Positions 40,187-59,632 of a stretch of 64,000 nt of DNA are shown here, in pieces (positions within the stretch are counted from its first letter, which is position 1; every line of letters begins with the position of its first letter). The stretch lies in assembly GCF_048403405.1 (NCBI RefSeq), contig NZ_CP183129.1; one strand, written 5' to 3'. The notes beneath the pieces were generated by a model that saw only the letters and a program-made list of their open reading frames with translations, was not told where the DNA came from and searched no databases. This stretch comes from Escherichia coli. GTDB taxonomy: Bacteria > Pseudomonadota > Gammaproteobacteria > Enterobacterales > Enterobacteriaceae. Position numbers and translations under genes: made by a program.

Positions 40187-41871
40187 TTGAAGAAGGTTTG
40201 GCTTAACCGTTATCCCGCGGACGTTCCGACGGAGATCAACCCTGACCGTTATCAATCTCTGGTAGATATGTTTGAGCAGTCGGTCGCGCGCTATGCCGAT
40301 CAACCCGCGTTTGTGAATATGGGGGAGGTGATGACCTTCCGCAAACTGGAAGAACGCAGTCGCGCGTTTGCCGCTTATTTGCAACAAGGGTTGGGACTGA
40401 AGAAAGGCGATCGCGTTGCGTTGATGATGCCTAATTTATTGCAATATCCGGTGGCGCTGTTTGGCATTTTGCGTGCCGGGATGATCGTTGTAAACGTTAA
40501 CCCGTTGTATACCCCGCGTGAGCTTGAGCATCAGCTTAACGATAGCGGCGCATCGGCGATTGTTATCGTGTCTAACTTTGCCCACACTCTGGAAAAAGTG
40601 GTTGATAAAACCGCCGTTCAGCACGTAATTCTGACCCGTATGGGCGATCAGCTATCTACGGCAAAAGGCACGGTAGTCAATTTCGTTGTTAAATACATCA
40701 AGCGTCTGGTGCCGAAATACCATCTGCCAGATGCCATTTCATTTCGTAGCGCCCTGCACAACGGCTACCGGATGCAGTACGTCAAACCCGAACTGGTGCC
40801 GGAAGATTTAGCTTTCCTGCAATACACCGGCGGTACCACTGGTGTGGCGAAAGGCGCGATGCTGACTCACCGCAATATGCTGGCGAACCTGGAACAGGTT
40901 AACGCGACCTATGGTCCGCTGTTGCATCCGGGCAAAGAGCTGGTGGTGACGGCGCTGCCGCTGTATCACATTTTTGCCCTGACCATTAACTGCCTGCTGT
41001 TTATCGAACTGGGGGGCAGAACCTGCTTATCACTAATCCGCGCGATATTCCTGGGTTGGTAAAAGAGTTAGCGAAATATCCGTTTACCGCTATCACTGGC
41101 GTTAACACCTTGTTCAATGCGTTGCTGAACAATAAAGAGTTCCAGCAGCTGGATTTCTCCAGTCTGCATCTTTCCGCAGGCGGAGGGATGCCTGTTCAGC
41201 AAGTGGTGGCAGAACGTTGGGTGAAACTGACTGGACAGTATCTGCTGGAAGGTTATGGCCTGACCGAGTGTGCGCCGCTGGTCAGCGTTAACCCGTATGA
41301 TATTGATTATCATAGCGGTAGCATCGGTTTGCCGGTGCCATCGACGGAAGCCAAACTGGTGGATGACGACGACAACGAAGTACCACCGGGTCAACCGGGT
41401 GAGCTTTGTGTCAAAGGGCCGCAGGTGATGCTGGGTTACTGGCAGCGTCCGGATGCTACCGATGAAATCATCAAAAATGGCTGGTTACACACCGGCGACA
41501 TCGCGGTGATGGATGAAGAAGGATTCCTGCGTATTGTCGATCGCAAAAAAGACATGATTCTGGTTTCCGGTTTTAACGTCTATCCCAACGAGATTGAAGA
41601 TGTCGTCATGCAGCATCCTGGCGTACAGGAAGTCGCGGCTGTTGGCGTACCTTCCGGCTCCAGTGGTGAAGCGGTGAAAATCTTCGTAGTGAAAAAAGAT
41701 CCATCGCTTACCGAAGAGTCACTGGTGACTTTTTGCCGCCGTCAGCTCACGGGCTACAAAGTACCGAAGTTGGTGGAGTTTCGTGATGAGTTACCGAAAT
41801 CTAACGTCGGAAAAATTTTGCGACGAGAATTACGTGACGAAGCGCGCGGCAAAGTGGACAATAAAGCCTGA
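40187..41871 (+). pseudogene. fadD: Long-chain acyl-CoA synthetase FadD, interrupted by a -1 frameshift in a G6 run at 41011-41016 (premature stop at 41060-41062)
   Basis: Two ORFs (40121-41062 and 41056-41871) in different frames each encode a contiguous part of FadD (...[13 protein letters not shown] | [22 protein letters not shown]...); restoring one G rejoins them. TTG start at 40187. Confidence 0.85.
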
Positions 41872-56079: not shown

Positions 56080-56583
56080 TTACGCAGTGCGGCGGAAATT
56101 GACCAGTTCTGGTTGCGCAATGCGCAAATAATCCGCGGTTTTCAAAATAACGGATTTATCCAGCATGCCTGCATTGAAGGCGATTTCATCAAATCGTTCG
56201 AAGAGTAGGGGATCGGCAACCAGTTTGAGTTTTGGATGGAAGCTGAAAGGGGGGATCGCGCCGAAGACACAGCCTGTGAGTTCATCGACTTCCGCCGGGC
56301 TGGCCAACGAAGCGCGTAATCCGCCTATATGGCTGGCGAGTTGGCTCAGATCGGCCTGTTGATCGGCAGCGAGGATCGCCAGAACATGTTGATTTACACC
56401 ATTGCCTTTGACTTTACATACCAGTGCCTTAGCCCCCTGGCCTAAAGCGGTGCCACGAATTTCTGACACCGCTTCACATTTACCTACCGCTTCATGGGTA
56501 ACGACGCGGAAGTCAGCACCTTCTTGTGATAATAAAGCGATTAACCGCTGATGCGTCATGCTTCCTTTAGCCATTTCAGTCAT
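56080..56583 (-). CDS. yeaK: YbaK/ProX-type aminoacyl-tRNA deacylase YeaK
   Basis: 167-aa ORF in the conserved position. Confidence 0.85.
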   Translation of the reverse strand: MTEMAKGSMTHQRLIALLSQEGADFRVVTHEAVGKCEAVSEIRGTALGQGAKALVCKVKGNGVNQHVLAILAADQQADLSQLASHIGGLRASLASPAEVDELTGCVFGAIPPFSFHPKLKLVADPLLFERFDEIAFNAGMLDKSVILKTADYLRIAQPELVNFRRTA

Positions 56584-56625
56584 TTCATGCTCCTGAGATT
56601 ACAAGCAAACAACCACAGAAGGTTA

Positions 56626-57976
56626 TCATGAACGGCTGTTTTTGTTCTGCTTATTGACATATAAACGCTCATCGGAAGCTTTATACGCATCATGTAACGT
56701 ATCGTTTTCTTTCATCGCGTAAATACCGGAAGAGAAGCCGATCTCTTTCTGCGGCGCGATATGTTGCAGACGTTTTTCGATACGTTCAGGCAGTTGTGCT
56801 GCAATTTGCGGCGTCGAATCGACTAGAATGATGCAGAATTCATCGCCACCGAGTCGGATGGCATAATCACTTTTACGAATCGACTGTTTAATCGCCTGAG
56901 CTAATAACGTAATCGCTAAATCCCCCTCCTGATGACCGAGGGTGTCATTTATTTGCTTTAACTTGTCCATGTCAATTGCAATAAACATCACCGAAGAACC
57001 GGATTGCACCAGTTTTTGCAACCGCTGCTCCAGTTCAGGGGTTAAAATTTTGCGATTATACAGTCCTGTCATCGCATCACTAATATTTTCTCGCGACACA
57101 TTTTGGTATAAACGGAAGTGCATCCGCACCATATTCAGCAAAATTAACGCCGTCAAAATCCAGAACAGAACGCTTTTCCACGAAGACGTGATAAAGTAAA
57201 GAATATCAATGGATAACGAGACACGAATGCCGCCCGGTAAGTCATGGACGTAACTGACATACTGGAACAGATTATCTTCGCTCTGGTTGATGATAATGTC
57301 GCGCCCCGAATCGGTATCGGTTAGCGTGACATTGAGAAAACGCCAGAGGAGAGGGCGGTCATGAGTGTAAAAGATATTCCGCAGATTGTTTTTGTTAATA
57401 TCCAGCAGCACAATCCCTTTTAGCTGCCCTGCGACATATACCGGCGTCAGCAAACTCATCACGTTCTGTTTAGTACGCTGATCCTGGTAAATGCTCGATA
57501 AAACGGTACGCCCGGTAAATACCTTTTCAATATCTTTGCGATCGATGCCAATACTTCCTGACTGCAGGAAAGACCAGTTATTCATCGCAAAGTACTCAAC
57601 ATTAACCGGCTCATAAAAATAGACATAGCGGTCATTGAGATCGAGATAATAGTGAAATTTCTCGTCGGCCATCCCAAGACCTGAACCGTAATCATCCTGG
57701 TGGCGGTTGCCTTCCACTGCCTGATCAAAAGCGGGTAATAGTGCTGCAGCTTCCACAATTGTGTCGCAGTCAGTGGATGCGGTTTGTAGTGTGCCGCGTA
57801 AGCCAGGGTATTTATGGGCAGTCAGGTTTAAGCCATGGGTATTATTTGCAGACTCAAAAGCCTCGCAGATGGTGCGCCGCTGTTCTGGCGACAAGTTCAA
57901 AAATAAGGAAGGAAGATGTCAGCACAATGACACTTGCGGCGATAAAATGCCGGAGCATTCTATGGTGCAATTTCAT
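56626..57976 (-). pseudogene. dgcJ: Diguanylate cyclase DgcJ (YeaJ), disrupted: the N-terminal 30 codons are out of frame with the body, consistent with a ~140-bp internal deletion
   Basis: ATG at 57976 has a strong AAGGAG ribosome-binding site and encodes MKLHHRMLRHFIAASVIVLTSSFLIFELVA, then 11 out-of-frame codons and a stop at 57854. The GGDEF body (SPEQRR...RLGGDEF...) is in another frame with only an internal TTG at 57900. Confidence 0.65.
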
Positions 57977-58156
57977 GATAAATGGCACTCCTTCGGTTAG
58001 TGAAACGAGAAAACCAGATAAAGTTCGATTGCGGCCTGGCACAGGGGCGCTAATTATACTCATCTCTGCGCCGCTGGGGAGGGGAAATTTAGGGGTAATA
58101 GTAATAAATTGTATGCAAAAGCCACGCAAAAAGCATGGCTCTGAATATTTTTGCAC

Positions 58157-59632
58157 TTAAATATGATGAATAATCACTTTGTTGCCCCCCTCGCTTTTCG
58201 CTTCGCGTAAGGCTTTATCTGCTTCCGTCATGACAAGCGAGATATTACGTGTGTCACCCGTTGAAAAAACCGTGCCAATACTGATGGTCATTTGCTCAGG
58301 AACATCATATCTGTTACTAAAGCCGGTCAGGAGTTCGACATTTTTACGCATACGTTCCGCAATGATTTTTGCCTGGGCACTATTGAGTTCGGTAAATAGC
58401 AAGCCAAACACCTCACCCTCCAGTCGCGCTAAAATATCATCGGGGCGGATGCTTTGCTGGATAATATCGACAATTGAAACCAGCACTTTATCACCCACAC
58501 GATGTCCCCATTGGGCATTGATGCGTTTGAACTGATTAATATCAACCAGCATGACACAGAAGTCCTTAACAACAGGTCGCGACAATAATGACTCTACGCT
58601 GTTGAAAAAGTAGCGCCGATTATAAATATTGGTCAGCACATCATGAACTGCCAGTTTGCTGGAGAGTTGCAGTTCCTGAAAAATGTTATAAATCAGAAAA
58701 GACACAACAAACAGTTTACTGGAGACTTCAATCCCGCGACTGATATACCAGATGGTGTAATTATACTCATCCAGAGTTAGTAGAAGTAAGTTGCAGCATA
58801 GCGATGCCAGACATAATAATGCTATTAACGGCCATAGTTCGCTGGCTAATCGTGTACGCATGATAATAAAGAACAGTAAAAATGCCCACAGACAAACCAA
58901 TGTTTTTGTATAGTTGATTCCCCAGGTCGCAGTATGGTTGTCCGGACAGTAATCGACGACATACAAAGAATAGTCAGCGTTATAACTGCTCAGATTGTGT
59001 GCCAGAAGGGGAAAAACTAAAAAAGGAATCAGCGCCAGTAACAGAATGCCAGTTTTTTTCTTATTGTTGTCAAGGATGTTGTCTTTCCCATAACAAAAGA
59101 GCGCCAGCGAGGTTAAACAAATGAAACTGAGTTGGCGGAAAATATAGAAAATAGAAACATCATTCGACTTTGTCTGGATCAGTGTACTGCCGTTGATTGG
59201 TTTATGGATAATTACAATGGTTTCAACTAAATAGATAAGGCCACTTAAAAATGCAAGGCTTAAAATGAGTGTTGGTAAAATTTGTTTGTTAGTGAAATAC
59301 TTCATTAACATGAAAAGAAAAATGACGGCGTTAAGGAAAAACAAAGCCACAACAACCATCAGGTAATTCATCTGTGGGATGAGTTTTACATTCGTGTTTT
59401 CGTTATATAAGGTAGTAATGCAAAATAAAATTAACGTCAGCAATAAGCTGAAAATAAAAAAGCCTTGAGCTTTTAATTTTTGTGTACCCATAGAAGCCAT
59501 AAAAAGGAGAGCAATGTGAGTGCTGGATTTTATTGATGGCAGAGATATATAGTTTTGACCAGGATCAATTTTCGTTAACGATAAAAAATATTTAAAGAAT
59601 AACCCCAGGGAAACACGTGTTGACCGAATCAT
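58157..59632 (-). CDS. cdgI: GGDEF-domain membrane protein CdgI/DgcI (YeaI)
   Basis: 491-aa ORF with N-terminal multi-helix membrane domain and C-terminal GGDEF-like domain. Confidence 0.85.
   Translation of the reverse strand: MIRSTRVSLGLFFKYFLSLTKIDPGQNYISLPSIKSSTHIALLFMASMGTQKLKAQGFFIFSLLLTLILFCITTLYNENTNVKLIPQMNYLMVVVALFFLNAVIFLFMLMKYFTNKQILPTLILSLAFLSGLIYLVETIVIIHKPINGSTLIQTKSNDVSIFYIFRQLSFICLTSLALFCYGKDNILDNNKKKTGILLLALIPFLVFPLLAHNLSSYNADYSLYVVDYCPDNHTATWGINYTKTLVCLWAFLLFFIIMRTRLASELWPLIALLCLASLCCNLLLLTLDEYNYTIWYISRGIEVSSKLFVVSFLIYNIFQELQLSSKLAVHDVLTNIYNRRYFFNSVESLLSRPVVKDFCVMLVDINQFKRINAQWGHRVGDKVLVSIVDIIQQSIRPDDILARLEGEVFGLLFTELNSAQAKIIAERMRKNVELLTGFSNRYDVPEQMTISIGTVFSTGDTRNISLVMTEADKALREAKSEGGNKVIIHHI

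What the first reader, a model, noticed from the sequence alone, without database searches (positions are those of the whole stretch)
57854..57976. dgcJ (yeaJ) N-terminal membrane segment is out of frame with the GGDEF body, suggesting an internal deletion
A strong ribosome-binding site and ATG at 57976 open a frame encoding a hydrophobic N-terminus (MKLHHRMLRHFIAASVIVLTSSFLIFELVA) that stops at 57854. The rest of the cyclase is in a different frame overlapping the junction, with only an in-frame TTG at 57900. From my recollection of the K-12 protein (496 aa), about 45 codons are missing between ...ELVA and SPEQRR..., which would fit a ~140-bp deletion between short direct repeats (TCGCCAG). 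That recollection is unverified.
Basis: partly seen in the sequence, partly recalled or inferred. Interest (0 to 1): 0.5.

Follow-up and report, generated by a model that had tools for sequence, protein, structure and literature searches.

The report
Private 140-bp deletion inactivating dgcJ
This E. coli strain has lost 140 bp near the start of dgcJ, a c-di-GMP signalling gene, through a deletion between two copies of a 9-bp repeat; that breaks the reading frame, an ordinary and already-known way of losing this gene, although this exact allele was not found in any other sequence searched.

Summary
dgcJ lies on the minus strand. The native ATG (57976) has a strong Shine-Dalgarno sequence but opens only a 40-codon ORF that stops at 57854. 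The rest of the gene (57900-56626, 424 codons) is in another frame. Alignment with intact alleles shows that exactly 140 bp are missing. In intact genes this stretch is bounded by two copies of TGTCGCCAG, and one copy remains at 57885-57893. The loss removes residues S31-V75, at the boundary between TM1 and the GAPES1/dCache sensor, and shifts the frame. The junction is absent from 5,426 complete E. coli genomes and from JGI metagenome contigs. None of the truncated products is in a 15-billion-protein collection. The nearest genome, MS 69-1, is otherwise almost identical across the 64 kb. The most likely reading is a microhomology (slippage) deletion that makes dgcJ a pseudogene. The expected consequence is loss of the DgcJ-NfrB local c-di-GMP pathway, and dgcJ knockouts are published as resistant to phage N4. 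Natural dgcJ disruptions are already known, so this is a new allele of a known kind. Residual activity from internal starts, and a sequencing or cloning artefact, cannot be fully excluded. Low interest.

The parts
56626..57976 (-). dgcJ pseudogene as a whole, from the native start codon to the native stop
   Evidence: ORFs. NCBIfam equivalog NF040885 (diguan_DgcJ): the 40-aa ORF matches profile positions 1-29 and the 424-aa ORF matches positions 73-492 at 640.5 bits. Gene order cdgI-dgcJ-yeaK is the same as in annotated genomes.
57988..57993 (-). Native Shine-Dalgarno sequence AAGGAG upstream of the dgcJ ATG
   Evidence: Sequence. Anti-SD duplex energy is -8.3 kcal/mol, the 1st percentile of random 21-mers from the window.
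57854..57976 (-). Residual 40-codon ORF: native residues 1-30 (including TM1) plus a 10-residue out-of-frame tail, RTAAHHLRGF, and a TGA stop
   Evidence: The hydropathy peak for TM1 lies at residues about 11-30.
57885..57893 (-). Deletion junction: the single remaining copy of the 9-bp direct repeat TGTCGCCAG
   Evidence: Alignment A1. The repeat copies sit at gene nt 84 and 224 in the intact allele, 140 nt apart. It is one of only three direct repeats of at least 9 nt lying within 300 nt of each other in the gene.
56626..57900 (-). Out-of-frame body ORF of 424 codons, counted from an SD-less TTG: GAPES1 remainder (about 57891-57205), TM2 (about 57195-57115) and the GGDEF domain (about 57081-56635)
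   Evidence: Pfam on the intact protein gives GAPES1 at 31-304 and GGDEF at 346-494. Body residue i corresponds to intact residue i+72. There is no SD pairing before TTG 57900 (+0.7 kcal/mol) or TTG 57894 (+0.4).
57664..57664 (-). Second private change in the same gene: GAA to GAC, E151D in intact numbering
   Evidence: None of 5,404 complete genomes matches the 57-nt probe at 99% or better. The change is derived in the window, because MS 69-1 and 042 share the other base.
57854..57859 (-). UUU UGA at the end of the short ORF. A hypothetical +1 slip here would enter the body frame.
   Evidence: An in-silico +1 shift gives an open 449-aa fusion. TTTTGA occurs 50 times in the window, so the motif alone is no evidence of recoding.

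Best explanation
The window carries a dgcJ (yeaJ) allele inactivated by a 140-bp deletion between two copies of the 9-bp direct repeat TGTCGCCAG. This is the classic signature of replication slippage or microhomology-mediated deletion. Shown: the deletion removes residues S31-V75, which sit at the junction between the first transmembrane helix and the periplasmic GAPES1/dCache sensor, and because 140 is not a multiple of 3 it shifts the frame. Ribosomes starting at the native, well-signalled ATG therefore make only a 40-residue hydrophobic peptide. The sensor remainder, TM2 and the GGDEF domain have no credible start signal of their own. Inferred: little or no body protein is made. Any that is made lacks TM1, so its sensor cannot reach the periplasm, and it lacks the first 45 residues of the sensor. 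The strain should then be functionally DgcJ-null: no DgcJ-dependent local c-di-GMP supply to the glycosyltransferase NfrB, hence less of the N4 receptor glycan, reduced sensitivity to N4-like phages, and a small loss of c-di-GMP-dependent motility inhibition. The allele looks like a recent event private to this strain.
For: Exact 140-bp gap and 9-bp flanking repeat. Two-frame ORF structure. Intact relatives are annotated as a 496-aa DgcJ. GAPES1 lies at 31-304 and GGDEF at 346-494. The two ORFs cover DgcJ profile positions 1-29 and 73-492. TM1 lies at about residues 11-30 and TM2 at about 308-334. SD pairing is -8.3 kcal/mol at the native ATG against +0.7 and +0.4 at the TTGs, and at best -4.1 at downstream in-frame starts. 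The junction is absent from 5,426 complete genomes by megablast and by 11-mer blastn, with a working positive control, and absent from JGI metagenome contigs. The truncated products are absent from the protein collection. The nearest genome, MS 69-1, differs at only 6 other positions in 64 kb. Literature: a dgcJ deletion or IS1 insertion gives N4 resistance; DgcJ catalytic activity and direct NfrB contact are required; point mutations in the dCache ligand pocket phenocopy the knockout (PMC8669469; PMC8669472).
Against: No expression or phenotype data exist for this strain. The GGDEF domain is intact and still in an open frame. Shigella DGC genes with stops upstream of GGDEF still make c-di-GMP from internal starts when expressed (PMC11327459). 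nfrA and nfrB lie outside the window, so the state of the downstream pathway is unknown. The slippage mechanism is inferred from the endpoints only, and the deleted DNA shows no unusual hairpin potential that would favour it (z = -1.25 and -0.97). Without reads, I cannot prove that the deletion exists in the living strain.
Confidence: 0.85

Rival explanations
1. The remnant still works in part. Internal initiation (TTG 57900/57894, GTG 57756/57717, ATG 57672) or a +1 ribosomal slip at UUU UGA (57859-57854) yields a sensor-crippled protein that keeps the GGDEF domain and still contributes c-di-GMP, possibly without regulation.
For: GGDEF and TM2 are intact, and the body ORF scores 640.5 bits against the DgcJ equivalog. 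Shigella flexneri dgcE, dgcQ and dgcN, which have nonsense mutations before GGDEF, still raise c-di-GMP and appear as multiple proteins (PMC11327459). A +1 slip at UUU UGA gives an open 449-aa fusion that keeps TM1, and GAGG lies just upstream, loosely like the prfB site (the prfB comparison is from my own knowledge).
Against: No SD pairing precedes the TTGs, and pairing is weak before the other starts. The short ORF ends 46 nt past TTG 57900 and about 100 nt before the next in-frame start, which is a poor geometry for re-initiation. TTTTGA is common, with 50 copies in the window, and the GAGG spacing differs from prfB. The Shigella results come largely from high-level plasmid expression. Single substitutions in the DgcJ dCache pocket already phenocopy a knockout for N4, so a protein missing 45 or more sensor residues is unlikely to serve NfrB.
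Confidence: 0.1
2. The deletion is not present in the natural strain. It arose during laboratory passage, cloning or amplification, or it is an assembly or consensus error.
For: The allele was not found in any public data searched. The same window also has a 1-bp loss in a G7 run that frameshifts fadD and a substitution next to a C-run (46590). Both are typical of consensus errors in homopolymers.
Against: Assemblers do not collapse a 140-bp unique segment on a 9-bp repeat. Endpoints that fall exactly on a microhomology are a biological signature. If the event happened in culture it is still a real mutation with the same mechanism. A 140-bp gap is not a base-calling error.
Confidence: 0.05
3. 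The loss was positively selected, for example by N4-like (Schitoviridae) phages or for motility, as part of a wider rewiring of c-di-GMP signalling in this lineage, rather than being a neutral accident.
For: Two of the seven window-private events fall in dgcJ (P about 0.01 under uniform placement), and a third is a missense change in another cyclase, dgcP H327R. Loss of dgcJ protects against N4. Independent IS1 insertions in the 5' part of dgcJ occur in other isolates and in MG1655 CGSC 7740.
Against: The enrichment test is post hoc and rests on tiny counts. E151D may simply be neutral drift after inactivation. Four of five private SNPs are nonsynonymous and fadD is also broken, which fits a general load of unpurged recent mutations. 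dgcJ is structurally intact in about 99% of complete genomes, so loss is not commonly favoured.
Confidence: 0.25

Closest known systems
dgcJ::IS1 in E. coli K-12 MG1655 CGSC 7740, and engineered dgcJ deletions (Sellner et al. 2021, PMC8669472; Junkermeier & Hengge 2021, PMC8669469)
   Same: The same gene is disrupted. The expected outcome is the same: loss of the specific c-di-GMP source for NfrB and protection against phage N4.
   Different: Here the lesion is a 140-bp microhomology deletion, not an IS insertion or an engineered knockout. It is in a wild-type-like, non-K-12 background closest to MS 69-1. No phenotype has been measured.
[quoted passage not shown]
   Same: These are sporadic, lineage-specific inactivations of an otherwise highly conserved gene. 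In L725 the break is also in the 5' sensor-coding part, and the GGDEF-containing remainder is still annotated as dgcJ.
   Different: The molecular event and breakpoints differ. The Shigella allele removes GGDEF, whereas this one leaves it intact but out of frame with the start.
Spontaneous deletions between short direct repeats (lacI deletions of Albertini et al. 1982; RecA-independent slipped misalignment, Bzymek & Lovett 2001). Both are cited from my own knowledge and were not checked here.
   Same: One repeat copy plus the intervening DNA is lost, and the endpoints fall exactly on a perfect short repeat about 100-150 bp apart.
   Different: Nothing distinctive. No hairpin potential between the repeats was detected.
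Shigella 'degenerate' DGC genes that stay active through internal starts (PMC11327459)
   Same: There is a premature stop upstream of an intact GGDEF domain.
   Different: Activity has not been tested here. The internal starts lack SD signals. DgcJ depends on its periplasmic sensor.

Membership tests
DgcJ (NCBIfam NF040885 equivalog; GAPES1 + GGDEF membrane diguanylate cyclase) | Sequence match to the equivalog model above its curated cut-off of 500 bits | tested here: met
   The body ORF scores 640.5 bits and the intact relative 746.6 bits. Orthology of the locus is not in doubt, because the synteny cdgI-dgcJ-yeaK is preserved.
DgcJ (NCBIfam NF040885 equivalog; GAPES1 + GGDEF membrane diguanylate cyclase) | One continuous reading frame covering the whole model (TM1, GAPES1, TM2, GGDEF) | tested here: not met
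   Profile positions 1-29 and 73-492 lie in two different frames, and positions 30-72 are missing. The locus is a dgcJ pseudogene, not a functional member.
DgcJ (NCBIfam NF040885 equivalog; GAPES1 + GGDEF membrane diguanylate cyclase) | Intact GGDEF active-site region | tested here: met
   TIGR00254 and Pfam GGDEF match at full length in the body ORF (121.8 bits). The motif RLGGDEFCI is present in the translation.
DgcJ (NCBIfam NF040885 equivalog; GAPES1 + GGDEF membrane diguanylate cyclase) | Diguanylate cyclase activity, and specific activation of NfrB and of N4 sensitivity | not testable with these tools
   This needs c-di-GMP measurement and phage plating. nfrAB lie outside the window.
Microhomology / slipped-strand deletion | Deletion endpoints coincide with a perfect short direct repeat in the ancestral sequence, and one copy is retained | tested here: met
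   TGTCGCCAG sits at gene nt 84-92 and 224-232 in intact alleles, and a single copy sits at window 57885-57893.
Microhomology / slipped-strand deletion | Secondary structure that brings the repeats together (a facilitating feature, not a required one) | tested here: not met
   DNA folding of the intact segment gives z = -1.25 and -0.97 against shuffles.
Programmed +1 frameshift site (prfB-like) | Conserved shifty codon plus stop, with a correctly spaced SD-like stimulator, and conservation of the two-frame arrangement among relatives | tested here: not met
   The two-frame arrangement occurs in no other genome. The UUU UGA stop exists only because of the deletion. The motif is common in the window. 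Frameshift efficiency itself was not testable.

The most novel reading that the evidence does not exclude
The deletion is an adaptive event rather than an accident. A natural isolate may have shed the DgcJ sensor input under pressure from N4-like phages, or for motility. The remnant may still be expressed, through internal initiation or a +1 slip at UUU UGA, as a sensor-less cyclase whose GGDEF domain acts without regulation. Together with the private dgcP H327R change, this would amount to a lineage-specific rewiring of local c-di-GMP signalling.
Probability: 0.05. Interest if true: 0.5.

Novelty: new member of a known kind. Interest (0 to 1): 0.2.

Why it matters
The finding matters mainly for annotation and strain phenotyping. 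The locus should be annotated as a dgcJ pseudogene (internal deletion, frameshift), not as a 424-aa cyclase starting at TTG. If the deletion is real, it predicts reduced sensitivity of this strain to N4-like phages and a slightly altered control of motility and exopolysaccharide production. That is relevant if the strain is used for phage work. It also adds one more independent natural loss-of-function allele to a gene that is intact in about 99% of E. coli genomes. It does not open a new question.

Tried and rejected
- **Same allele elsewhere:** I searched with a 45-nt junction probe designed so that intact alleles cannot seed. It gave no hit by megablast or by 11-mer blastn at E<1e-6. The positive control, using the same probe design on the intact boundary, hit 645 genomes. 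The control also showed that the megablast probe only works on genomes with window-like flanks, which is why I repeated the search with short words.
- **Other collections:** JGI metagenome contigs gave 0 hits. An exact look-up of eight possible products found none in the protein collection.
- **Hairpin-assisted slippage:** the deleted segment does not fold unusually well.
- **Is the 9-bp repeat itself unusual?** No. Shuffled genes give on average 1.19 such close repeats. Only the coincidence of the endpoints with the repeat is informative.
- **Promoter and terminator scan around dgcJ-yeaK:** results were at or below chance level, so I can say nothing firm about polarity on yeaK.
- **Programmed frameshift reading:** rejected as a membership claim, because the arrangement is unique to this window and the motif is common.
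- **Published surveys:** a search for surveys of GGDEF gene variation turned up the Shigella paper. PMC10459773 does not mention DgcJ.

Full report
**1. Observation**

On the minus strand, AAGGAG (57993-57988) precedes an ATG at 57976. That ATG opens the ORF MKLHHRMLRHFIAASVIVLTSSFLIFELVARTAAHHLRGF, which stops at TGA 57856-57854. A second ORF in a different frame runs from TTG 57900 to 56626. It has 424 codons and contains the rest of a GGDEF protein. The upstream neighbour (58157-59632, 491 aa) and the downstream neighbour (56080-56583, 167 aa) are intact. In annotated relatives they are cdgI and yeaK.

**2. What is missing**

A 511-nt query across the region matched 5,409 complete E. coli genomes. 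Every listed match came as two pieces spanning 651 bp. Direct alignment with strain 2012C-4221 shows one gap of exactly 140 bp and no other difference in that stretch.

In the intact gene, the 9-mer TGTCGCCAG occurs at nt 84-92 and again at nt 224-232 and nowhere else. The window keeps one copy, at 57885-57893. Native residues 1-30 are retained, the 45 residues S31-V75 are lost, and the frame is shifted because 140 is not a multiple of 3.

Pfam places GAPES1, the periplasmic sensor, at residues 31-304 and GGDEF at 346-494. Hydropathy places TM1 at about residues 11-30 and TM2 at about 308-334. The deletion therefore begins exactly where TM1 ends and the sensor begins. Against the NCBIfam DgcJ equivalog, the 40-aa ORF covers profile positions 1-29 and the body ORF covers positions 73-492.

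**3. How widespread is the allele?**

I built a 45-nt junction probe (18 nt, the repeat, 18 nt) so that intact alleles cannot provide a 28-mer seed. The searches gave these results:
- The probe found nothing in 5,426 complete genomes.
- The same design on the intact left boundary found 645 genomes. This shows the probe design works, and also that flank SNPs limit its sensitivity.
- I therefore repeated the junction probe with 11-nt words and an E-value limit that excludes half-matches. Again there was no hit.
- The junction is absent from JGI metagenome contigs.
- Eight candidate translation products are all absent from a collection of about 15 billion proteins.
- The deleted 140 bp are present in 5,407 of 5,426 genomes.
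- The whole gene is found in one place covering at least 80% of its length in 5,372 of 5,426 genomes. Large structural disruption therefore affects only about 1%.

Two of those exceptions that I inspected carry IS1 in the 5' part of the gene.

**4. Background of the window**

The nearest genome, MS 69-1, differs from the 64-kb window by only five substitutions, one single-base gap and this deletion. With E. coli 042 as outgroup, all five substitutions are derived in the window.

| Window position | Gene | Effect |
|---|---|---|
| 544 | tnpA (ISEc46) | F11F, synonymous |
| 18886 | yebQ | P258S |
| 41011 | fadD | G7 to G6, frameshift, stop at codon 292 of 561 |
| 46590 | yeaV | V107G |
| 51463 | dgcP | H327R |
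| 57664 | dgcJ | E151D |

E151D is seen in none of 5,404 genomes. The fadD G6 allele is seen in one other genome out of 5,401.

Two of the seven private events lie in dgcJ (P about 0.01 under uniform placement). That test is post hoc. E151D could equally be neutral drift after inactivation.

**5. Mechanism**

Shown: the endpoints coincide with a perfect 9-bp direct repeat and one copy is retained.

Inferred, from established knowledge of short-repeat deletions: slipped-strand misalignment during replication, or another microhomology-mediated event.

The repeat itself is unremarkable, since shuffled genes contain 1.19 such close repeats on average. The intervening DNA has no unusual folding potential.

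**6. Consequence**

Shown: the native start has strong SD pairing (-8.3 kcal/mol), whereas TTG 57900 and TTG 57894 have none (+0.7 and +0.4). The downstream in-frame starts have weak pairing at best.

Inferred: translation from the native start ends after 40 residues, and the body is made poorly if at all. Any product would lack TM1, so its sensor would stay in the cytoplasm, and it would lack the first 45 sensor residues.

The published work bears on this. DgcJ is the specific local c-di-GMP source for the glycosyltransferase NfrB and contacts it directly. Deletion or IS1 disruption of dgcJ protects against phage N4. Catalytically dead DgcJ fails to complement. Single substitutions in the dCache ligand pocket phenocopy the knockout (PMC8669469; PMC8669472). 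I therefore expect a functional null for this pathway. nfrAB lie outside the window and were not examined.

**7. Rivals**

(a) Residual activity. Shigella dgcE, dgcQ and dgcN carry stops before GGDEF yet still raise c-di-GMP from internal starts (PMC11327459). Here GGDEF is intact, so this cannot be excluded. The weak start signals and the dependence of DgcJ on its sensor argue against a meaningful role. A +1 slip at UUU UGA (57859-57854) would give an open 449-aa fusion that retains TM1. However, the motif is common and exists as a stop only because of the deletion.

(b) Artefact. The homopolymer indel in fadD hints that the consensus may not be perfect. A 140-bp loss with microhomology endpoints is nevertheless not a typical sequencing or assembly error. 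Reads or PCR are needed to settle this.

(c) Selection by phage or for motility. This is possible but unsupported beyond the small-count enrichment.

**8. Comparison and verdict**

The locus is orthologous to dgcJ, but it fails the requirement of a single continuous frame. It is a dgcJ pseudogene. Natural inactivation of dgcJ by IS elements, deletions or stops has been reported (PMC8669472; PMC11327459), and I saw it here in other genomes. This is a new, apparently private allele of a known kind, produced by a textbook mechanism.

Noticed in passing
window 41005-41011 (fadD, + strand; gene starts at 40187): A run of 6 G where MS 69-1 has 7 frameshifts fadD and gives a stop at codon 292 of 561. 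Only one of 5,401 complete genomes (B1.H1.18, annotated there as a truncated 'AMP-binding protein') shares the G6 allele. It is either a real second gene loss in this strain or a homopolymer consensus error.
   Followed up: partly
window 51463 (dgcP, minus strand): Window-private missense change H327R near the C-terminus of another diguanylate cyclase, DgcP. Together with the two dgcJ events, 3 of the 7 private changes in 64 kb fall in cyclase genes. This is a post hoc observation.
   Followed up: partly
window 544, 18886, 46590: The other window-private substitutions are tnpA (ISEc46) F11F, yebQ P258S and yeaV V107G. The last is adjacent to a C-run. Overall 4 of 5 private SNPs are nonsynonymous, which fits very recent unpurged mutations, laboratory passage or some consensus error.
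   Followed up: partly
window 57664 (dgcJ): E151D in the GAPES1 sensor is found in none of 5,404 complete genomes. It may be drift after the gene was inactivated.
   Followed up: yes
window about 1-940: By correspondence with the MS 69-1 annotation, an IS200/IS605-type element (ISEc46 tnpA, plus an InsQ/TnpB-family RNA-guided endonuclease gene that runs off the window start) lies next to ptrB. It is shared with MS 69-1 and 042, and tnpA is frameshifted in 042.
   Followed up: no
L007 2728-5175 (strain L725) and L006 2228-4621 (strain Iso00041): Independent IS1 insertions interrupt the 5' sensor-coding part of dgcJ in other isolates. In L725, RefSeq still names the 449-aa GGDEF-containing remainder 'dgcJ'. 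In Iso00041 the fragment has been moved next to ygeH, between two IS1 copies.
   Followed up: partly
window 56584-56625 (dgcJ-yeaK spacer): Only 42 nt separate dgcJ from yeaK, and no terminator-like site lies between them. The early stop in dgcJ could therefore cause Rho-dependent polarity on yeaK if the two genes are co-transcribed. The signal scans were at chance level.
   Followed up: partly
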